Positions 14,688 to 58,976 of a stretch of 64,000 nt of DNA are shown here, piece by piece (positions within the stretch are counted from its first letter, which is position 1; the number at the start of each line of letters is the position of its first letter). The notes under the pieces are model-generated. The model did no database searches, was not told where the DNA came from, and saw only the letters and a list, made by a program, of their open reading frames with translations. The stretch lies in the sequence record MN882349.1; one strand, 5' to 3'. A program made the position numbers and the translations under genes. The stretch is from Escherichia phage Ec_Makalu_003.

Positions 14688-16739
14688 TTACATTTTAAAT
14701 TTATCCGGCATAGCGTCTACAGACACAAGATCAGCGATAAGCTGACGTAGAGTTGCCTTATCTGCTTTCTTACGTTCGGTTTTAGCTTCGGTAATGAAGC
14801 TGGAGAAAGACAGGTCAGAAGCAGGTTTAACAACACCTTCACGGATGAATGCATCACCGTCCGCGATCATCTCACCAGATTCTTGTAATGCTGCCAGTTC
14901 ATTTTTGTTCATAATATGTGCCTCAATGTAATAAGTTTCTTGTGAATCCGTCGATGCCGTAGCACGAGTTACCGTATCAAAGGATAACACAACACCGCGA
15001 GGAAGTAAAATCTCGCATTCTTTGTAAGCAAATGCTTTGTTACCTACTGGCAATACAGGGATGTTTTCCGCGCCAGCAATGGAGAAAGCAACATTAGCGC
15101 CACCTTCACCGCGAGATCCAGCCATAGAATCAACACCAGCAACGGCACTAGCCACGTTTGCATTCCATCCACCAAAAATATTAGGTGCAAGGGAAGTGCT
15201 CACATAGTTTTTAAAGTAAAACGCTTTTTGCTTACGTGCAGTTTCCCACATTTGAGAACGGAAGTCCATACCACGATACAAGATAGTACCTGGATCAAGT
15301 TTAACACCATAGTTAGCAAATGCGTTATCCAGTGCATCACACATCTTGACCAATTCTTCTGGGTCTGCGATGCCTTCAAACTCTTCCAGCTTACGGTCGG
15401 TTAGGAAGTTGTTCATATTGATGTATGCTGCATCCGCATATTCGCTCAACACAAAACCTTCCGCGCCAGGCAGATCAAGATCAATATCTGCCATCATTTC
15501 ACCCATGTTGCTAGCAATTGCTTCAAACATACCGGAAGCAACATTACGCAGGGCATCGGTTTTAATCTGCGTGATGTGACTACGCAGCATTTCAGCTTTT
15601 ACATCTGCTGGCATAGACTGGTCGACGCGATCCATTGCCAGGGCGGTGATCTTGTTTTCGAATACTTCCTCGCTCATGATTTCTTTTAAGCGTTTGATTG
15701 ATGCTGCGATAACTTCCGCAGACAACGGATCATATTGATCCTGAACTTTTACCAGTTCGCTTACTGCATATTTTGCATCGGCTTCGCTTTCAAAAATAGT
15801 ACGCATGAAACCATAGCGAGTGATAATATCACTTGTCCAGTCATTCAGAGAACGGGCGGTTGAACGTTCTAAGGCTTGACGGTCAATCAGAGTATTAAAC
15901 TGTTTCTTAGGTTCTGCTTCGGTGATATCTTCTTCCGGTTTAAGATTAATTTTTTCTGGATGATTCACATAGTCGCTGTTATAGGTCGCTTGAGTTTTCA
16001 GCATTTCTTCTTTAGTCAAACGAGATTTAGCCGCTACGCGTTGTTCTGCTTCCGCGTTTCGTTCTTCTTCCGACACAAGACTAGCCGCATACGCCTCATC
16101 TTTAGTCAGAGATTCACCAGTAGCCTTAGATACCCAGCGATCACCTAAATCACTTTCTACTTTAGTGAACAGGGATTCATCGAGTTTAATCCCTTTAATC
16201 TTATCAATCGCCATCCCGCGACGTTTGACAACAACTAAAGCGATCTTTTTGCTGGTCATTACTTCCTGCTGGAATACTTCAAACTTCGGTGTACGACGCA
16301 CCAAACGCTCTATAACGCGCTTAACCAGTTCGGTCTTACCTTTCATGCGGGATACGTTAAAACGGAACATAACAGCGTCTAATTGCGCTTTACGGGCTGT
16401 TTCCATGACCACATCAAAAGCACTTGACATAACTGCAATCGGGTTATCTCCTAGACCATTTTTAAGCTGTACAATACGACCGCTTTTGTTCATTTCGCAC
16501 AGTACAACATGTGCGGTCTTGTCACCCATACGAATGATTTTAGGTGTTTTGTTGGTGAAGTTACAAAGACGGACAATCACATCTTTATCGCGTGTCTGTA
16601 CTGCAAAAAGCTGTTTAGGATTCTGCTTAGGCTTTAAGCACTGTACCGGAGCAATACTGCCAAAGTTTTCTTCCTCTTCCGTCAACAGCCATTTCTCGAA
16701 AGATTCAATCATTAGATCGTCGATTTCTAAGTTAAACAT
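14688..16739 (-). CDS. alt: Alt ADP-ribosyltransferase
   Basis: 683 aa (T4 Alt is about 682); R-S-E motifs LYRGMDFR, YVSTSLAPNIFGGW, KECEILLPRG; T4 position. Confidence 0.8.
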   Translation of the reverse strand: MFNLEIDDLMIESFEKWLLTEEEENFGSIAPVQCLKPKQNPKQLFAVQTRDKDVIVRLCNFTNKTPKIIRMGDKTAHVVLCEMNKSGRIVQLKNGLGDNPIAVMSSAFDVVMETARKAQLDAVMFRFNVSRMKGKTELVKRVIERLVRRTPKFEVFQQEVMTSKKIALVVVKRRGMAIDKIKGIKLDESLFTKVESDLGDRWVSKATGESLTKDEAYAASLVSEEERNAEAEQRVAAKSRLTKEEMLKTQATYNSDYVNHPEKINLKPEEDITEAEPKKQFNTLIDRQALERSTARSLNDWTSDIITRYGFMRTIFESEADAKYAVSELVKVQDQYDPLSAEVIAASIKRLKEIMSEEVFENKITALAMDRVDQSMPADVKAEMLRSHITQIKTDALRNVASGMFEAIASNMGEMMADIDLDLPGAEGFVLSEYADAAYINMNNFLTDRKLEEFEGIADPEELVKMCDALDNAFANYGVKLDPGTILYRGMDFRSQMWETARKQKAFYFKNYVSTSLAPNIFGGWNANVASAVAGVDSMAGSRGEGGANVAFSIAGAENIPVLPVGNKAFAYKECEILLPRGVVLSFDTVTRATASTDSQETYYIEAHIMNKNELAALQESGEMIADGDAFIREGVVKPASDLSFSSFITEAKTERKKADKATLRQLIADLVSVDAMPDKFKM

Positions 16740-16806
16740 TTTATATCCTCTAGTTGATAACCTATAAACCTATATTTATGAAAAAGGGGCTTAACACCCC
16801 CATTTA

Positions 16807-17019
16807 TTATAATGCACCATCGAGCAATTGCTCTAAGGTGTATCCTGAATAGTCTTTTTCAATCAGGATATATTTTCCTACTCGTTTAATACAACCGCGC
16901 ATTTCAACGTATTCTGCGTAGTTGATGGTGCGAGTTGTTCCATCTTCTAGTAAAGCAGTACCGATTTCGTTAATGCGGTCATAAGTTACGTCGGTAATGA
17001 TGATTTCGATGTTAGCCAT
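16807..17019 (-). CDS. hypothetical protein, 70 aa
   Basis: ORF directly downstream of the PeSL promoter at 17050-17084. Confidence 0.45.
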   Translation of the reverse strand: MANIEIIITDVTYDRINEIGTALLEDGTTRTINYAEYVEMRGCIKRVGKYILIEKDYSGYTLEQLLDGAL

Positions 17020-51379: not shown

Positions 51380-54322
51380 ATGGCAGATTTAAGCAGAATC
51401 CAATTTAAACGTACTAGCACTAAAGGCCGTCGACCTGATGCTGGTACGATGAATCCGGGGGAATTGGCAATCAACCTTGCGGATCAATATCTTCTTACTA
51501 AAAATGATTCCGGCGCTATTATCAATTTAAGTTGTCCTCCGGTTTATGACCGTGATGTTACAATGGCGGGTAAGGTTAAAGGAAATAATTATATTTTAAG
51601 TAAAACCGCCAATTATCTGGAAGACCAGACAGCGAGAGATCTTAACTACTTTGGTGCTTTCCGTACCAATAGTCTAGATGGACTCATGGATCTAACCCTT
51701 AACGTTCCTCACTCTTCCGGTAAAGCGCATGGTCGAGGATTTACTTTCCGTTATGGGACTGGCGGATCTCGTGTTGAAACCTATGGTTTTGATGTTCAGG
51801 GACAAAAAGCATTTAGTTATAAAATGTATCATGAAGGGGATAAACCGACTCCCTCAGAATTGAACGTTTATAGCAAACAAGAAGTTGACCGTATGTTTGT
51901 TAAAACCGTTAAACTTGCTACAGTTCCTGTTGATATCGTTGACGGTTATTTTAAATTAGCAACTGCATTGATTCCGCAAAACGGTCGTAGTGTATTTTTC
52001 CGTATTCATGGTGGTAACGGATATAACGTTACTGCATACGATCAAGTTGATATTGTAGAAATTGTTATTCGCAGTGGAAATAATCGTCCTAAAGGTGTTA
52101 ACGTTATTGCATACCGCCGAAATACAAACAAAGCATTTGATGTTTTGGCTGTTAATACTTCTGGTGATAACTATGATATCTACGTGAAATATCAGCGTTA
52201 CACTGATAACGTTATTGTTGAATTTGGTAAAAGTGTTGATGTTGATCTGGTGGTTCATGACGTTCCAGACTTTGTTGTTGATCGTCCTGTTGGTGATAAT
52301 GTTATTGGCGGTCGCGCGGTAACTCTTTTTAACACCGAAAACAAACGAGGTGTGTTGAGTTTTGACGATAACACACAAAATAGTTATGATATTGTTCACT
52401 TGAGTAATGATAAAGGTACTGGAAGGAAATATATTCGTAAATTCCGTAGTAACTATAATGAAATGATCTGGCATGAGACGGTTCAAGGTTCCAGTTATCG
52501 ACTCGCCACGGGTAGTACAGATGCTCAGGAAATTATAACTATTGAATCTAGTAGCTCAATTGCTGGAACTCATAAAGGTAATATTATTTCTGGTCGTATG
52601 CTGTTAAATGGCGGATCTAATGCCATTACACTACGCCGACCTGCTGGTCAGTCTAATCATATCGCTTTTCAGGATAACCGCACCGGAGATATTACTCGTC
52701 AAGGATGGATCGGTTATGCAAACGCTGATACTAACGTTTTTGAATGGTATAGTGATGTAGGCGGTAGTTCTATTCGTCAACATATTGACGGCCAGATAGA
52801 ACTTCAAACTGGCAATATGAAGCGAGTTTATACTAACGCTCAATTCATCTCAATGAATAGCGACGCCTACCGTATGCTCTATGGTAATTATGGTGCATTC
52901 TGGCGTAATGACGGCGTTAAAGTTTATCTTCTTTCTACTGCCGAAAATGATAAATTGGGCGGATGGAATACTTATCGTCCATTCATTTATGATTTAACTT
53001 CCGGTAACGTTCAATTAGGTGGTGATGGTAACGAAGATGCATTAACTTTAGAATGTGCTTCTCGTGCCGCTCGCTTTAGTAATGACGTTTACATTAAGAA
53101 AGGGCATTTGACTTTCGATGCTGGTCGATTAAATTCTCGTGATTACTTCCGGTTTAACCATTGGGGTGATAGCAATAACGCCCGTGATAACATCCTACAG
53201 CTTGACGATAGCAAAGGTGCACACTTCACCACTGAACGTACTTTAGCAACTGGTGCGATTAGAACTAAATTCTTCGGTGATTTGGAAGCTGCTGGTCAAA
53301 TTAAATGGGGTAAAGGGACCGCCGCATCTACGTTTACTCTACGTGTATGGGGTAACGATAGTCGTAAACAAATATTTGAATGCGGCGATGAAAGCGGGTG
53401 GCATTGGTATACCCAACGCGCTGGCGGTCCAGATACTTCTGCAATTGAGTTTGCCATCAACGGTACTGTTAAGCCTCAAGCAATTCACACTGGCGGTAAT
53501 ATCACTATCAACGGTGCTGATATTGAGTTTAAACGCACTGGCAATAAGCACATCTGGTTTAGAGACCCGAACGGTTTAGAGTTAGGCTTGATGTACTGCG
53601 ATGATGCTGGTGCTATTCGCTTCCGTGGTCAGAAACAAGCCCAGGCGTGGAAATTTGCAGATAAAATGATCCAGTTGGAATCTGGCACTGTATCCGGTGG
53701 CGGTAATGGCCTGATTCGTGGTGAAGTTGCTGGCGGTAGTTGGGCTAGCTGGCGTGACCGTGCTGCTGGCCTTATGGTTGGGTGTCCTCAATCCGTTGAT
53801 TCGGCACATAACGTATGGAAAGCGACGCATTGGGGTAAATATCATATCGCAGCAATGGGTGTACATGTTCCTAGTGGTACGATTACCAATGCTTTAGCTC
53901 GCCTAAACGTTCATGACGCTAACTTTGACTTTAGCGCCTCCGGTGACCTGTCGGTAGGGCGTAATGGTTCGTTTAACGATGTTTATATTCGTTCTGATGC
54001 TCGCCTTAAAATCAACAAAGAAGAGTATAAAGAGAATGCCACCGATAAAGTTAATCGCTTGACGGTATACACCTATGACAAGGTTAAATCTTTAACCGAC
54101 CGCACTGTCATTGCTCATGAAGTTGGTATTATTGCTCAGGATCTTGAAAAAGAATTGCCGGAAGCAGTAACAACTTCTAAGGTCGGCGATCCTGATAAGC
54201 CAGAAGAGATCTTAACAATTTCTAACTCTGCTGTCAACGCTCTTTTAATTAAGGCGTTTCAGGAAATGAGCGAAGAATTGAAAGTCGTTAAAGCTGAACT
54301 AGCGGAACTTAAAAAGAATTAA
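51380..54322 (+). CDS. 37: long tail fiber distal subunit gp37 with C-terminal intramolecular chaperone domain
   Basis: 980 aa; C-terminal YIRSDARLKINKEEY...TVYTYDK resembles the S74 chaperone/autoprotease domain of phage fibres. Confidence 0.75.
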   Translation: MADLSRIQFKRTSTKGRRPDAGTMNPGELAINLADQYLLTKNDSGAIINLSCPPVYDRDVTMAGKVKGNNYILSKTANYLEDQTARDLNYFGAFRTNSLDGLMDLTLNVPHSSGKAHGRGFTFRYGTGGSRVETYGFDVQGQKAFSYKMYHEGDKPTPSELNVYSKQEVDRMFVKTVKLATVPVDIVDGYFKLATALIPQNGRSVFFRIHGGNGYNVTAYDQVDIVEIVIRSGNNRPKGVNVIAYRRNTNKAFDVLAVNTSGDNYDIYVKYQRYTDNVIVEFGKSVDVDLVVHDVPDFVVDRPVGDNVIGGRAVTLFNTENKRGVLSFDDNTQNSYDIVHLSNDKGTGRKYIRKFRSNYNEMIWHETVQGSSYRLATGSTDAQEIITIESSSSIAGTHKGNIISGRMLLNGGSNAITLRRPAGQSNHIAFQDNRTGDITRQGWIGYANADTNVFEWYSDVGGSSIRQHIDGQIELQTGNMKRVYTNAQFISMNSDAYRMLYGNYGAFWRNDGVKVYLLSTAENDKLGGWNTYRPFIYDLTSGNVQLGGDGNEDALTLECASRAARFSNDVYIKKGHLTFDAGRLNSRDYFRFNHWGDSNNARDNILQLDDSKGAHFTTERTLATGAIRTKFFGDLEAAGQIKWGKGTAASTFTLRVWGNDSRKQIFECGDESGWHWYTQRAGGPDTSAIEFAINGTVKPQAIHTGGNITINGADIEFKRTGNKHIWFRDPNGLELGLMYCDDAGAIRFRGQKQAQAWKFADKMIQLESGTVSGGGNGLIRGEVAGGSWASWRDRAAGLMVGCPQSVDSAHNVWKATHWGKYHIAAMGVHVPSGTITNALARLNVHDANFDFSASGDLSVGRNGSFNDVYIRSDARLKINKEEYKENATDKVNRLTVYTYDKVKSLTDRTVIAHEVGIIAQDLEKELPEAVTTSKVGDPDKPEEILTISNSAVNALLIKAFQEMSEELKVVKAELAELKKN

Positions 54323-56249: not shown

Positions 56250-56618
56250 TCACTTAACAAAGATTTTCTTTAATGCTTTCAGGATCGTTGCTTCCGGCGC
56301 TTCTTCCGGTGGAGGAAGCAATTCTACCACTTCCTCTTCCAACTCGATATAGTCTACCAGATATTCTACATAGAATGCAAGTGCTTCCATGAAATTAGAT
56401 GCTACATCCGATTCACCACAAGCGCCTACATGCATTGTATAAACATCACTGCGATCAAGTTTGTGGATGCTTCCCAGATAGTTCCGGTTATACCAGACTT
56501 CCCACACTTTCAGTTTTCCGGTTTTAGTTGCTGTCTTATAATCTGTTTCGTAGTGGTGCAGTTGACGTTGCAGATCATTGATAATAACACATTTTTCGTA
56601 ATTGTTTTGAATTTCCAT
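56250..56618 (-). CDS. hypothetical protein, 122 aa
   Basis: ORF in the t-52 variable block. Confidence 0.45.
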   Translation of the reverse strand: MEIQNNYEKCVIINDLQRQLHHYETDYKTATKTGKLKVWEVWYNRNYLGSIHKLDRSDVYTMHVGACGESDVASNFMEALAFYVEYLVDYIELEEEVVELLPPPEEAPEATILKALKKIFVK

Positions 56619-56628
56619 GATGTAATCC

Positions 56629-56820
56629 TCACTTATCGTTAAGAAGTTCTAAAACTTTCTGTCGTACTTTGTCAATATTAGTTGACTCAAATACTGTACG
56701 GTATCCCCAACTTTGACCGTATGATCGAGAGCAATCCCCGTATCCCCATTGTTCAACCTGATAGTATTCAAGGAATGGGTGTTGCCGAACTATGATACCA
56801 TCGCGATTAAAAATTACCAT
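56629..56820 (-). CDS. hypothetical protein, 63 aa
   Basis: ORF in the t-52 variable block. Confidence 0.4.
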   Translation of the reverse strand: MVIFNRDGIIVRQHPFLEYYQVEQWGYGDCSRSYGQSWGYRTVFESTNIDKVRQKVLELLNDK

Positions 56821-56843
56821 AATATAATCCTCACGTCAACAAA

Positions 56844-57122
56844 CTATTTTCGGTTATACTTCTGCCACTTTCGGTAATACTGCTTGTAATGTTGTTTAAT
56901 GTTTGGCGGTTCGTCACTATACATGTTATCAACCATCATGTCAATAAGACCCTCCGGTGTTTGATAGCTCCCCGCTCGAATAAGTTCCTTAATTAAAAGA
57001 TCTTGCGTCGCTTTATACTCTACAATAACAACTGTCTTTTCTGCCTTTCCAATTCCGATCTGGTCGTTAGCTCTCATAGCATCCCACCAGTCTTTTTTAA
57101 ACTTCATGTTATTGAATTGCAT
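56844..57122 (-). CDS. hypothetical protein, 92 aa
   Basis: ORF in the t-52 variable block. Confidence 0.45.
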   Translation of the reverse strand: MQFNNMKFKKDWWDAMRANDQIGIGKAEKTVVIVEYKATQDLLIKELIRAGSYQTPEGLIDMMVDNMYSDEPPNIKQHYKQYYRKWQKYNRK

Positions 57123-57133
57123 AATTTAACCTC

Positions 57134-57892
57134 TTACTTGCAAACGTATTGATCTACATCAATTGCGCCACCGAATGTAGGATGACGTTTTTCAAATCGA
57201 ATAGTTCCGTCGTTTGGTTCGAAAACGGAGTATTCATATAGATCTTTCTTGCCAACATTCTTATAAAACCCGCCTTTAGTCATAACGGTTTCTTGTACGT
57301 TTGCTTTGTGTACATTGTATTCATCAATGTACACAAAATCAACCATCTTCCCATTTTTAATAGTTACTTTAAGATCCCCTGGCTGGTTTCCATATTTTGC
57401 ATACAGTGGAGATTCTTTAATTTTGGTGGAAATTCCATCTTTCATACTCCACTCATAACGAACGGTGCATTGATAGGTAAAAGTTTCGACCTTCGGTTCT
57501 TCCACCACTTTTGCTTCCTGTTTCGGTTGTTCTTCTTCAACCTTCGCAGAAGTCTCTGAATCGCTTTCTGACGCTGTTTCTTCTTTGGGTAATACATTCA
57601 TCAAGTTTTGGATTTGAGCGTTGTATACAGCCTCAAGTGGCTGAATCTGCCCTATATTGATCATTGTATCACGAACAGTTTTATTCCAGTTGCGTTGCTC
57701 TTGTTTCAGAGACGGATCAATCTTAACAGCCTTAACATATACTTCATGAAGTTTAGAATCAAGTGCGGAGATTGACTCGTTAGCACAAATAAACTTCTCT
57801 GATTTGGTGGTAGCCTTAGTGCAATCAAAGGACGCAGCATTAGCACCGATGGCAGTAGCAGAAAGAAAGATAGCAGCGATAATGTTTTTCAT
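57134..57892 (-). CDS. secreted protein with DUF1311 / LprI-like N-terminal domain
   Basis: signal peptide MKNIIAAIFLSATAIGANA then CTKATTKSEKFICANESISALDSKLHEVY...QRNW. Confidence 0.55.
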   Translation of the reverse strand: MKNIIAAIFLSATAIGANAASFDCTKATTKSEKFICANESISALDSKLHEVYVKAVKIDPSLKQEQRNWNKTVRDTMINIGQIQPLEAVYNAQIQNLMNVLPKEETASESDSETSAKVEEEQPKQEAKVVEEPKVETFTYQCTVRYEWSMKDGISTKIKESPLYAKYGNQPGDLKVTIKNGKMVDFVYIDEYNVHKANVQETVMTKGGFYKNVGKKDLYEYSVFEPNDGTIRFEKRHPTFGGAIDVDQYVCK

Positions 57893-57920
57893 AATATATT
57901 CCTCAATGTCTTGTCTTGAT

Positions 57921-57955
57921 GGGAGTATCTTACTACTCCCTTAATCCGGTGTCAA
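57921..57955 (-). promoter_or_regulatory. early promoter with stem-loop (PeSL)
   Basis: TTGACA followed by palindrome GGGAGTAGTAAGATACTCCC, same stem as the 22722 element. Confidence 0.6.
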
Positions 57956-57962
57956 CTACTTT

Positions 57963-58118
57963 TTAAATTTCTTCTACAGTAAAGTCTTCAATGTTGTTGT
58001 GCTCGGAGAACGTTGCCAGACCAGCATTCCATGCATCATCCTCAGAGAAGAATACACCGTAACGTTCATATCCTTTAGCGCCTTCAAATTTAATCATTAA
58101 TTTGTGAGTATGTTTCAT
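57963..58118 (-). CDS. hypothetical protein, 51 aa
   Basis: ATG at 58118 after the conserved leader. Confidence 0.35.
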   Translation of the reverse strand: MKHTHKLMIKFEGAKGYERYGVFFSEDDAWNAGLATFSEHNNIEDFTVEEI

Positions 58119-58149
58119 TTTGATTCTCCATCGTTGTCTTGATGAGTTT

Positions 58150-58178
58150 AGTATAGGGGATCACCGATCCCCTGTCAA
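58150..58178 (-). promoter_or_regulatory. early promoter with stem-loop (PeSL)
   Basis: TTGACA, spacer GGGGATCGGTGATCCCC, TATACT. Confidence 0.65.
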
Positions 58179-58187
58179 CAACTATTT

Positions 58188-58400
58188 TTAATTTTTACCC
58201 ACGCGTAAATTAATGCGCATTTTCTGCATAGCCATGATCTGGTTTACTGCTTCTTCTTTACGCTCTTTCGTGATAATGTGACCAGATTCCGCAAACGCTC
58301 CCGCAACTTCTTCTACGATCTCGCGAACTTGAGAACGTCCAAAGATGCGATTTCCTTCGTAGCTCATAAACTCGGTTACTACTTGCTCAATAGATTTCAT
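58188..58400 (-). CDS. hypothetical protein, 70 aa
   Basis: ORF after a PeSL. Confidence 0.45.
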   Translation of the reverse strand: MKSIEQVVTEFMSYEGNRIFGRSQVREIVEEVAGAFAESGHIITKERKEEAVNQIMAMQKMRINLRVGKN

Positions 58401-58427
58401 GTGATTCTCCTTCTTTCGTTTCGGTGT

Positions 58428-58462
58428 GGGAGTATGTTAATACTCCCGTTTCTTTACATCAA
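58428..58462 (-). promoter_or_regulatory. early promoter with stem-loop (PeSL variant)
   Basis: TTGATG followed by perfect palindrome GGGAGTATTAACATACTCCC. Confidence 0.55.
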
Positions 58463-58469
58463 CCAGTTT

Positions 58470-58712
58470 TTAGAAATTTTTCGCTTCTTCTTCGGTCATC
58501 ATAACCGCGCATTCGTGCATAACTTTGAAAACCGGATCAATCATGTCGAATGCCTCGCGAGACAATTTACGAGAAGCGATTTTGATTGCTTCAACGTCTT
58601 CTACTACAGGAACAAAAACAGTTTTCAGTTCATCGAGCACAGCAGCTTCTTTTTCATTCAGGAAGATTCCAGCGTCGTACAGTGCAACTTCGATAACATT
58701 AACTTTAACCAT
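58470..58712 (-). CDS. hypothetical protein, 80 aa
   Basis: ATG at 58712. Confidence 0.45.
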   Translation of the reverse strand: MVKVNVIEVALYDAGIFLNEKEAAVLDELKTVFVPVVEDVEAIKIASRKLSREAFDMIDPVFKVMHECAVMMTEEEAKNF

Positions 58713-58775: not shown

Positions 58776-58976
58776 CTAGTTTTTGTTATTTTCGTGAAAA
58801 TTTTTCGTCGCCTCATGTGCTTTTCGCTGGGCTTCTTGTTGTGCTTGCTGGCGTGCTGCCTCTTGTGAAGCCATAACGGAAGCATTTGCAGCAGTTACAG
58901 CCGCTACCATCGCTGCGGTATTAGCATTTACAGTACATGCACTAGCCAGCAAAGCAATTGCAATCATTTTCTTCAT
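58776..58976 (-). CDS. small secreted protein, 66 aa
   Basis: signal peptide MKKMIAIALLASACTVNA; Ala/Gln-rich mature part. Confidence 0.45.
   Translation of the reverse strand: MKKMIAIALLASACTVNANTAAMVAAVTAANASVMASQEAARQQAQQEAQRKAHEATKNFHENNKN

What the first reader, a model, noticed from the sequence alone, without database searches (positions are those of the whole stretch)
57134..57892. Secreted protein with an LprI/DUF1311-like N-terminal domain
The 252-aa ORF has a cleavable signal peptide followed by the Cys-flanked motif CTKATTKSEKFICANESISALDSKLHEVY...QRNW that I associate with DUF1311, the domain of the mycobacterial lysozyme inhibitor LprI. A periplasmic protein of this kind made early from a PeSL promoter could modulate envelope enzymes or superinfection exclusion.
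Basis: partly seen in the sequence, partly recalled or inferred. Interest (0 to 1): 0.5.

Follow-up and report, generated by a model that had tools for sequence, protein, structure and literature searches.

The report
Exported two-domain phage protein, swappable barrel
This early gene of an RB49-like (T4-type) E. coli phage encodes an exported protein with a near-invariant LprI/DUF1311 domain joined to a beta-barrel that exists in several very old, interchangeable versions, and some E. coli prophages carry the same gene; it probably protects the cell envelope from incoming cell-wall-cutting enzymes, but this is untested.

Summary
Window 57134..57892 (-) is a 252-aa ORF with a Sec-type signal peptide, a Pfam LprI/DUF1311 match above the curated cut-off (26.3 vs 22 bits), and a PeSL-type early promoter. 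The domain call is not new. UniProt already names the RB49 ortholog this way, NCBI names the E. coli homologs likewise, and a 2006 paper listed a weak DUF1311 match.

Three things were added here.
- The protein has two domains. A helical DUF1311 domain (aa 20-100) is joined by a disordered acidic linker to an orphan 8-stranded beta-barrel (aa 136-252) with invariant Cys in the first and last strands. This parallels M. tuberculosis LprI (DUF1311 + MliC barrel) but lacks MliC sequence features.
- The N-domain is nearly invariant, while the barrel occurs as at least four deeply diverged cassettes exchanged at the linker.
- 26 of 5426 complete E. coli genomes carry the gene as the last cargo gene of a prophage. 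Two of the three prophage copies examined keep a truncated piece of the Krischvirus downstream gene.

The most likely role is a periplasmic binder or inhibitor of incoming peptidoglycan hydrolases, giving superinfection exclusion or immunity (confidence about 0.4). "Lysozyme inhibitor" is not established for this domain.

The parts
57921..57965 (-). PeSL-type early promoter cassette. It runs from the stop codon of the upstream ORF (57965-57963) in an AT-rich stretch, through the -35 TTGACA (57955-57950) and a 17-nt spacer, to the -10 TAAGAT (57932-57927). The stem-loop GGGAGUA/UACUCCC (57940-57921) overlaps the -10 box.
   Evidence: 10 of 12 consensus matches; stem-loop in the MFE and centroid folds, z = -2.55. 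The layout matches the PeSL description in PMC2839356. The cassette is conserved in RB49, Phi1 and UPWr_E1 but absent from the prophage copies.
57890..57904 (-). Shine-Dalgarno GAGGA (57904-57900) and start codon ATG (57892-57890).
57836..57892 (-). Signal peptide, aa 1-19 (MKNIIAAIFLSATAIGANA). Predicted signal peptidase I cleavage is after Ala19. There is no lipobox.
   Evidence: hydropathy. The A-x-A|ASFDC junction is conserved in distant homologs.
57593..57835 (-). N-terminal LprI/DUF1311-like helical domain, aa 20-100, with the Cys24/Cys36 pair. It is nearly invariant across the family.
   Evidence: Pfam PF07007, 26.3 bits against a cut-off of 22, aa 24-76. AF2 predicts four helices with pLDDT about 72-87. 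dN is 0.00-0.03 and dS is 0.05-0.26 between alleles.
57488..57592 (-). Disordered acidic linker rich in E, K, P and S, aa 101-135. Its 3' part, about 57522-57485, is the 5' junction of the allelic cassettes.
   Evidence: pLDDT is below 50 for aa 104-132. Homology to the prophage copies ends at nt 371-408 of the gene.
57137..57487 (-). C-terminal orphan beta-barrel of about 8 strands, aa 136-252, here the class A cassette. Cys142 lies in the first strand and Cys251 in the last.
57134..57136 (-). Stop codon TAA. This is the 3' boundary of the variable cassette.
56844..57122 (-). Downstream 92-aa ORF (phrog_15915, function unknown), probably co-transcribed: its ATG is 11 nt after the stop and has its own GAGG. 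Its first ~24 codons survive as a truncated remnant behind the gene in the E. coli prophages.

Best explanation
**Proposed mechanism.** The gene is transcribed early from a sigma-70 PeSL promoter. The product is exported by Sec and cleaved after Ala19, and each domain is locked by one disulfide. The mature protein is a soluble 26.6-kDa periplasmic protein with two binding modules on a flexible acidic tether of about 35 residues.

I propose that it protects the envelope of the infected cell, or of the lysogen in the prophage version. It would do so by binding and neutralising peptidoglycan-cleaving proteins that arrive from outside. The foremost candidates are the tail-tip lysozymes of superinfecting contractile phages, a job like that of T4 Spackle. 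Muramidase-type T6SS effectors are the second possibility.

The invariant DUF1311 module would be the constant part, binding a conserved partner. The beta-barrel would be the specificity module, held in the population as old interchangeable cassettes.

**Shown here:** the ORF, the promoter motif, the export signal, the domain family, the fold prediction, the cassette polymorphism and the presence in prophages.

**Inferred:** periplasmic location, disulfides, binding, and the identity of any target.
For: 1. **Family precedent.** The protein is a PF07007 member. The DUF1311 protein Etsi4 rescues E. coli from the periplasm-acting toxin Etse4 (PMC12981562). LprI-domain proteins are predicted immunity proteins next to lysozyme-like T6SS effectors (PMC9796082; PMC12135965).
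3. **Timing and location.** The gene has an early promoter plus an export signal, and each domain carries one Cys pair, also in the Klebsiella and Aeromonas phage homologs.
4. **Works without the phage.** 26 of 5426 complete E. coli genomes carry the gene as the last gene of a ~35-kb prophage, in a variable cargo slot beside the attachment site. A weak promoter-like site and a terminator-like hairpin flank that copy. Two of the three prophage copies examined still carry a truncated piece of the Krischvirus downstream gene. So the gene was taken from a virulent phage and kept where only a host-envelope or anti-invader function makes sense.
5. **Allele pattern.** The N-domain has dN 0.00-0.03. 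The barrel has dN 0.37-1.3 between classes, with synonymous sites near or beyond saturation. Virulent phages and prophages share the same classes. This pattern is typical of specificity loci in antagonistic interactions.
6. **No conflict with the phage's own lysis.** The RB49 endolysin is a Peptidase_M15_4, not a lysozyme, and the only lysozyme domain identified is in tail protein gp5.
7. **No Spackle found.** A Spackle query found no homolog in RB49 1-100 kb plus this window.
Against: - No experiment exists for this protein.
- The PF07007 domain alone has never been shown to inhibit lysozyme, and ScwA does not.
- The match covers only two thirds of the profile.
- The barrel is a generic fold. 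The Cap15 barrel, outer-membrane barrels, lipocalins and FABPs score as well as or better than PliC-like inhibitors.
- There is no MliC Pfam hit, and the motifs SxSGAxY and YxxxTKG are absent.
- gp5 is at least 99% identical in 57 phage records, essentially all Krischvirus. Barrel diversity therefore cannot track gp5 variation within the genus.
- Klebsiella T4-like phages carry both Spackle and an LprI-N-domain protein, so the latter is not simply a Spackle substitute.
- Pairwise dN/dS of the barrel is 0.14-0.3, which gives no gross signal of positive selection.
Confidence: 0.4

Rival explanations
1. The protein is a ScwA-like modulator of the host's own peptidoglycan enzymes. The periplasmic DUF1311 domain would bind or stabilise an endogenous lytic transglycosylase or endopeptidase, as ScwA raises MltD levels. 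This would tune wall remodelling, lysis timing or lysis inhibition during infection.
For: ScwA is the only enterobacterial PF07007 protein studied in detail. It is soluble, periplasmic and disulfide-dependent, it changes the levels of MltD and other hydrolases, and its overproduction causes lysis (PMC7933661). The near-invariance of the N-domain fits a conserved host target. The gene lies about 1.8 kb from the holin gene t.
Against: It does not explain why the second domain exists as deeply diverged cassettes, since host E. coli peptidoglycan enzymes are conserved. ScwA carries its LprI domain at the C-terminus of a different, all-helical protein. A prophage cargo gene that perturbs wall homeostasis would more likely be costly.
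Confidence: 0.2
2. The protein is an orphan immunity protein against bacterial T6SS (or colicin-like) muramidase effectors. Phages and prophages would carry it to keep the host alive in dense communities.
For: DUF1311/LprI-domain proteins with signal peptides act as, or are predicted to be, T6SS immunity proteins, and orphan copies are common. The polymorphic C-terminal cassette resembles the diversity of immunity repertoires. A prophage cargo slot is a typical home for orphan immunity genes.
Against: No effector gene lies next to it in the phage or the prophages. The benefit to a virulent phage with a short latent period is doubtful. The DUF1311 immunity proteins cited in those papers are not reported to carry a second domain, whereas this protein has an extra barrel.
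Confidence: 0.12
3. The protein excludes phages by masking a non-enzymatic envelope component. The variable barrel would bind the periplasmic face of an outer-membrane receptor or a Tol/Ton-type component and block adsorption or DNA entry, as T5 Llp does for FhuA.
For: The layout of a constant part plus a variable part resembles receptor-recognition proteins. Other phage hits for the barrel fold include a protein annotated as a lipoprotein. The prophage location fits lysogenic-conversion exclusion genes.
Against: Barrel class does not follow the type of the phage's own gp37 fibre tip. Class A occurs with tips 66-97% identical to the window's, and other classes with tips 66-94% identical. There is no lipid anchor, unlike Llp or Cor. 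The DUF1311 family link points to wall enzymes, not receptors.
Confidence: 0.13

Closest known systems
Pfam PF07007 (LprI/DUF1311) proteins, including the E. coli T6SS immunity protein Etsi4 and Salmonella ScwA
   Same: The N-domain matches the family model above its curated threshold. It is secreted, helical and carries the N-terminal Cys pair. Family members act in the periplasm on cell-wall-related proteins.
   Different: Only profile positions 1-71 of 106 are matched, and the domain has two Cys rather than the four conserved cysteines reported for ScwA and its orthologs. It is fused through a long acidic linker to an orphan beta-barrel. It is encoded by a virulent T4-type phage and has no adjacent effector gene.
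Mycobacterium tuberculosis LprI (DUF1311 + MliC lipoprotein lysozyme inhibitor) and the MliC/PliC/ACP/PhiA barrels
   Different: There is no MliC Pfam match, and the motifs SxSGAxY and YxxxTKG and a lipobox are absent. Unrelated barrels such as Cap15, OmpW and lipocalins score as high or higher, so homology is unproven.
Bacteriophage T4 Spackle (gp61.3)
   Same: Both are early, signal-peptide-bearing periplasmic proteins of T4-type phages. Spackle is the known solution to the task proposed here, inhibiting the gp5 tail lysozyme of superinfecting phage. No Spackle homolog was found in the Krischvirus sequences searched.
   Different: There is no sequence or fold relation. Spackle is a small helical bundle of about 90-100 aa. 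Klebsiella T4-like phages have both proteins.
PeSL cassettes of RB49/Phi1 (Arbiol et al. 2010)
   Same: The upstream element has every described component: a stop codon in an AT-rich stretch, -35 and -10 boxes, a stem-loop over the -10 box, and a Shine-Dalgarno site.
   Different: The allelic exchange seen in this gene is not PeSL-mediated. Its junctions lie inside the ORF, in the linker, and at the stop codon.

Membership tests
Pfam PF07007 LprI/DUF1311 | Profile HMM score at or above the curated gathering score | tested here: met
   The score is 26.3 bits against a cut-off of 22, E = 1e-5. Seventeen of 18 relatives match. Distant phage homologs score 25-30 bits.
Pfam PF07007 LprI/DUF1311 | Match over the whole domain model | tested here: not met
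   Only profile positions 1-71 or 1-72 of 106 align in every member. The last third of the model is not recognisable.
Pfam PF07007 LprI/DUF1311 | Secreted, all-helical domain with conserved cysteines | tested here: met
   The signal peptide is supported. AF2 predicts four helices over aa 30-98. Cys24 and Cys36 are invariant.
MliC/PliC lysozyme inhibitors (the C-domain of M. tuberculosis LprI) | Pfam MliC (PF09864) match | tested here: not met
   No MliC hit at E <= 1 in any of 18 members or in 6 further alleles at E <= 0.1.
MliC/PliC lysozyme inhibitors (the C-domain of M. tuberculosis LprI) | Motifs SxSGAxY (loop 4) and YxxxTKG (strand 6) | tested here: not met
   A regex search over representatives of all four cassette classes found neither motif. 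A lone TKG occurs in class A only. The motifs are as given in PMC5507604.
MliC/PliC lysozyme inhibitors (the C-domain of M. tuberculosis LprI) | Eight-stranded antiparallel barrel with a beta1-beta8 disulfide | tested here: inconclusive
MliC/PliC lysozyme inhibitors (the C-domain of M. tuberculosis LprI) | Inhibition of lysozyme activity | not testable with these tools
   This needs purified protein and a muramidase assay.
M. tuberculosis LprI-type lipoprotein | Lipobox and lipid anchor | tested here: not met
   The first Cys follows ...ANAASFD, which does not fit the L-[AS]-[GA]-C lipobox consensus. An A-x-A signal peptidase I site is present instead.
T4 Spackle | Sequence homology to Spackle | tested here: not met
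   A tblastn search with a Klebsiella-phage Spackle against this window and RB49 1-100 kb gave nothing below E = 0.19. This protein has a different size and fold.
T4 Spackle | Binding and inhibition of the gp5 lysozyme domain | not testable with these tools
A biochemical assay is needed.
T6SS DUF1311 immunity proteins | Encoded next to the cognate effector | tested here: not met
   The neighbours are small phage ORFans in Krischvirus. In E. coli they are a terminase-small-subunit-like gene and hicB.
PeSL regulatory cassette | Sigma-70 consensus boxes with an associated stem-loop in an intergenic AT-rich stretch, followed by a Shine-Dalgarno site | tested here: met
   with the definition taken from PMC2839356.

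The most novel reading that the evidence does not exclude
The gene is a modular periplasmic exclusion or immunity locus in phage-against-phage conflict. A constant DUF1311 module would carry a specificity barrel that is swapped as ancient cassettes by recombination in the acidic linker. The cassette pool would be shared between virulent Krischvirus phages and a temperate E. coli prophage that captured the gene from a virulent phage. Different cassettes would neutralise different incoming tail lysozymes or other envelope-breaching proteins, making this a new, polymorphic counterpart of T4 Spackle.
Probability: 0.2. Interest if true: 0.7.

Novelty: new variant of a known kind. Interest (0 to 1): 0.45.

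Why it matters
If the proposed role holds, three things follow.
- RB49-like phages, in which I found no Spackle homolog and no annotated imm or sp in the RB49 regions I read, would have a defined periplasmic exclusion factor.
- The widespread but functionally vague DUF1311/LprI domain would gain a tractable phage model.
- It would document a virulent-phage gene taken over and kept by prophages, with specificity cassettes still shared between the two pools.

For phage therapy cocktails built from Krischvirus phages, such a factor could decide which phages interfere with each other, and which lysogens resist them. If the role does not hold, this remains a correctly annotated domain in one of many T4-type ORFans.

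Tried and rejected
- **MliC/PliC membership of the barrel.** Rejected at the sequence level. There is no Pfam hit, the motifs are absent, and profile searches of PDB sequences gave only noise. The fold evidence is not specific.
- **Barrel class tracks the phage's own receptor-binding fibre.** No association was found with gp37 tip identity.
- **Barrel diversity tracks Krischvirus gp5.** gp5 is at least 99% identical in 57 records.
- **Known defence-system protein.** PADLOC gave only noise, E >= 0.004 at 13-14 bits.
- **Solved-structure relatives by sequence.** None were found for the full protein, the barrel profile or the N-domain profile.
- **Deep search for barrel relatives.** Seven hits came from 1.84 billion representative proteins. 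Only one is a family member, so the barrel is an orphan.
- **Close relatives in other bacterial species.** The species-representative genome scan found only distant DUF1311 proteins, 29-59% identical over short stretches. The profile search of 5.8 billion proteins found mainly short proteins of 80-142 aa, about half with a precomputed PF07007 hit.
- **Class D homology to classes A-C.** The profile-profile probability is 2.6%. Only the first strand (FxYxC...IDG) is alike, so whether class D has the same fold is open.
- **AlphaFold-database fold search.** That library was not available.
- **Literature on this protein or its accessions.** Only the 2006 genome paper was found.

Full report
**Where the window comes from**

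The region 56600-58500 is 99.6% identical to Escherichia phage Ec_Makalu_002 and about 91% identical to RB49. The window is therefore from an RB49-like T4-type phage (genus Krischvirus, Straboviridae). The ORF corresponds to RB49p262. It lies in the stretch of small early genes between the holin gene t and topoisomerase gene 52.

**Checking the observation**

- Pfam PF07007 (LprI, formerly DUF1311) matches aa 24-76 at 26.3 bits against a curated cut-off of 22, E = 1e-5. Only positions 1-71 of the 106-position model are covered.
- The match recurs in 17 of 18 relatives and in distant homologs from Klebsiella and Aeromonas T4-type phages.
- PHROGs places the whole protein in phrog_14799 and the N-terminal half in phrog_4675. 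Both are of unknown function.
- The N-terminus has a basic residue, a 12-residue hydrophobic core and ANA|ASFDC. The A-x-A|ASFDC junction is kept in homologs that are only 42-56% identical in the N-domain. There is no lipobox.
- Upstream lie TTGACA, a 17-nt spacer and TAAGAT, with a 7-bp stem-loop over the -10 box, then GAGGA and ATG. This is the layout published for PeSL cassettes of RB49 and Phi1, which are described as early promoters and terminators (PMC2839356).

Export and early expression are inferences from sequence.

**The domain call is already public**

- UniProt names the RB49 ortholog Q7Y3G7 [quoted passage not shown].
- NCBI names the E. coli homologs "lysozyme inhibitor LprI family protein".
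- Nolan et al. 2006 listed a DUF1311 match (E = 0.2) for RB49ORF260c, which is most likely this gene under an older ORF numbering (PMC1524935).
- No paper was found that studies the protein.

**Anatomy**

AlphaFold2 on the full protein gives three regions:
- a four-helix N-domain, aa 30-98, with pLDDT about 72-87;
- a disordered acidic segment, aa 104-132, with pLDDT below 50;
- a beta-rich C-domain.

Predicted alone, the C-domain (aa 136-252) is confident, with pLDDT 90.8 and pTM 0.84. It is an up-and-down barrel of about eight strands. Cys142 sits in the first strand and Cys251 in the last. Both Cys are conserved in all but one distant relative. The N-domain has its own pair, Cys24 and Cys36. 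One Cys pair per domain is also seen in the unrelated C-domains of the Klebsiella and Aeromonas phage homologs. This fits an oxidising compartment.

Fold searches show a generic barrel:
- Foldseek against PDB gave the NHBA C-domain, FABPs and fHbp/TbpB barrels, all weak.

By sequence the barrel is an orphan. It gave seven hits among 1.84 billion representative proteins, only one of them a credible relative.

**Comparison with M. tuberculosis LprI**

Published work states that M. tuberculosis LprI is a PF07007 domain followed by an MliC domain. It also states that MliC, not PF07007, is the part shown to confer lysozyme resistance (PMC7933661). MliC/PliC/ACP proteins are eight-stranded barrels with a conserved disulfide between the first and last strands (PMC5507604).

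The phage protein therefore repeats the LprI architecture at the level of fold and Cys placement. It fails every sequence criterion for MliC: no Pfam hit, neither motif and no lipobox. I record this as "works-like is possible, membership is not shown".

**Evolution: the unexpected part**

*Identity profile.* Aligning 18 homologs shows aa 1-110 almost invariant and the C-domain hypervariable. I then aligned the gene with its flanks from the window, RB49, Phi1, UPWr_E1 and three prophage copies.
- Krischvirus genomes are mostly 87-100% identical upstream of the gene, apart from an extra ORF in Phi1. They are 85-98% identical through nt 1 to about 370.
- For other cassette classes, identity drops to about 35-60% from about nt 380 to the stop codon.
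- Identity recovers after the stop codon, apart from a second variable gene downstream.

*Substitution rates.*
- N-domain: dN 0.00-0.03, dS 0.05-0.26.
- Barrel between classes: dN 0.37-1.3, with dS from 1.4 to beyond saturation.
- Barrel between close alleles of one class: dN/dS 0.14-0.3.

The barrels are therefore old lineages joined to a recently shared N-domain by recombination in the repetitive acidic linker. They are not a fast-evolving tail of one gene.

*Classes.* I distinguish four.

| Class | Example phage | Phage records |
|---|---|---|
| A | window, RB49 | 44 |
| B | UPWr_E1 | 1 |
| C | Phi1, GEC-3S | 11 |
| D | JSE | 2 (same phage) |

Classes A-C are 27-40% identical to each other. 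Class D is not detectably related beyond the first strand. Metagenomic proteins add further sublineages.

**Prophage copies**

- 26 of 5426 complete E. coli genomes carry a chromosomal copy. Its first 371-408 nt are 94-96% identical to the window gene, after which homology stops.
- In the three genomes examined it is the last gene of a prophage inserted into hicB. In IMG/VR it sits at the very end of proviruses of about 23-36 kb.
- Homology with Krischvirus begins at the start codon, and the PeSL promoter is absent.
- In two of the three prophage copies examined (classes B and C), homology continues past the stop. It runs into a 24-codon truncated remnant of the Krischvirus downstream ORF. This is good evidence that the prophage copy derives from a Krischvirus-like genome.
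- The prophage population carries classes B, C and D. The counts are about 8, 12 and 6, inferred from match lengths plus the sequenced examples. Class A was not seen.
- Related prophages inserted in ycdX have nothing, or a different small ORF, at the same position. The position is therefore a variable cargo slot.
- A weak promoter-like site and a terminator-like hairpin flank the prophage copy.

**Tests of specific ideas**

- *Barrel class versus fibre tip.* Barrel class is not associated with the type of the phage's own gp37 tip. This argues against a receptor-matching role.
- *gp5 variation.* gp5, the tail lysozyme, is at least 99% identical in 57 records. If gp5 of the same genus is a target, it fits the invariant N-domain rather than the variable barrel.
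- *Own lysis.* The RB49 endolysin is a Peptidase_M15_4 and gp5 carries the Phage_lysozyme domain. A periplasmic muramidase inhibitor would therefore not interfere with the phage's own lysis.
- *Spackle.* A Klebsiella-phage Spackle finds nothing in RB49 1-100 kb plus this window. The window corresponds to roughly 100-164 kb of such a genome, judging from the Makalu_002 coordinates. The RB49 annotation names no sp or imm in the regions read. This is a single-query, sequence-level negative.
- *Both proteins together.* Klebsiella T4-type phages have both Spackle and an LprI-N-domain protein.

**Most likely mechanism**

I commit to the following. The product is an early, Sec-exported, disulfide-stabilised periplasmic protein with two binding modules. 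It protects the envelope by neutralising incoming peptidoglycan hydrolases. Tail lysozymes of superinfecting phages are the first candidates, and T6SS muramidases the second. Confidence is about 0.4.

Four things support this:
- DUF1311 proteins have precedents as periplasmic immunity proteins.
- The architecture resembles that of LprI.
- Prophages retain the gene as cargo.
- The allele pattern looks like that of a specificity locus.

Four things weigh against it:
- There are no data for this protein.
- ScwA gave a negative lysozyme result.
- The barrel fold is generic.
- Pairwise comparisons show no overall sign of positive selection.

The rivals are a ScwA-like modulator of host wall enzymes (0.2), receptor or envelope-component masking (0.13), and a purely T6SS-directed orphan immunity protein (0.12).

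**Verdict**

- The finding is real and the domain call is right but already annotated.
- The name "lysozyme inhibitor" should not be read as a function.
- As far as I could find, three points are undescribed: the orphan barrel, its cassette polymorphism, and the transfer from virulent phage to prophage.
- I rate it a new variant of a known kind, of moderate interest. A clear set of experiments could raise or end that interest.

Noticed in passing
window 58776..58976 (-): A 66-aa ORF starts MKKMIAIALLASACTVNA, which looks like a signal peptide with a possible lipobox-like ...LASAC. The rest is rich in Ala and Gln. It matches no PHROG family. It may be another exported early protein in the same gene cluster.
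   Followed up: partly
window 53420..54319 (+), distal part of gene 37: The long-tail-fibre tip is 96.7% identical in protein to Ec_Makalu_001 but only 66.9% identical to Ec_Makalu_002. Yet the DNA 3 kb away (56600-58500) is 99.6% identical to Makalu_002. The fibre tip is therefore mosaic relative to the closest genome.
   Followed up: partly
window 56844..57122 (-): The downstream 92-aa ORF (phrog_15915) has a conserved start (about 25 codons, MQFNNMKFKKDWWDAM...). Its remainder exists in two forms: the window groups with Phi1, and RB49 groups with UPWr_E1. The form does not follow the barrel class of the neighbouring gene.
   Followed up: partly
window 58150..58178 (-): A second PeSL-type element lies here: TTGACA, a 17-nt spacer and TATACT (11 of 12 consensus matches). 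The stem-loop GGGGATC..GATCCCC sits between the boxes, upstream of the 51-aa ORF 57963..58118.
   Followed up: no
L003 and L004 (E. coli 266917_2 and DEC5A); L045 and L046 (GN4741 and UTME-12): The same prophage backbone is integrated either in hicB, truncating the antitoxin gene, or in ycdX. The slot between a terminase-small-subunit-like gene and the attachment site is empty, holds an unrelated 101-aa ORF, or holds the LprI-family gene.
   Followed up: partly
L023 4719..5108 (RB49p102) and 15150..16952 (gene 5): The RB49 endolysin is a Peptidase_M15_4, not a T4 e-type lysozyme. The only Phage_lysozyme domain identified in the RB49 regions read is in tail protein gp5.
   Followed up: yes
L019 2501..3256 (Klebsiella phage Clarke_MM3) and L020 2474..3193 (Aeromonas phage AS-sw): Other T4-type phages encode proteins of similar length (239-251 aa). 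They share the same signal-peptide junction and LprI-like N-domain but have unrelated C-domains that look non-barrel, each with its own Cys pair. In the Klebsiella phage the gene lies near primase and Spackle.
   Followed up: partly
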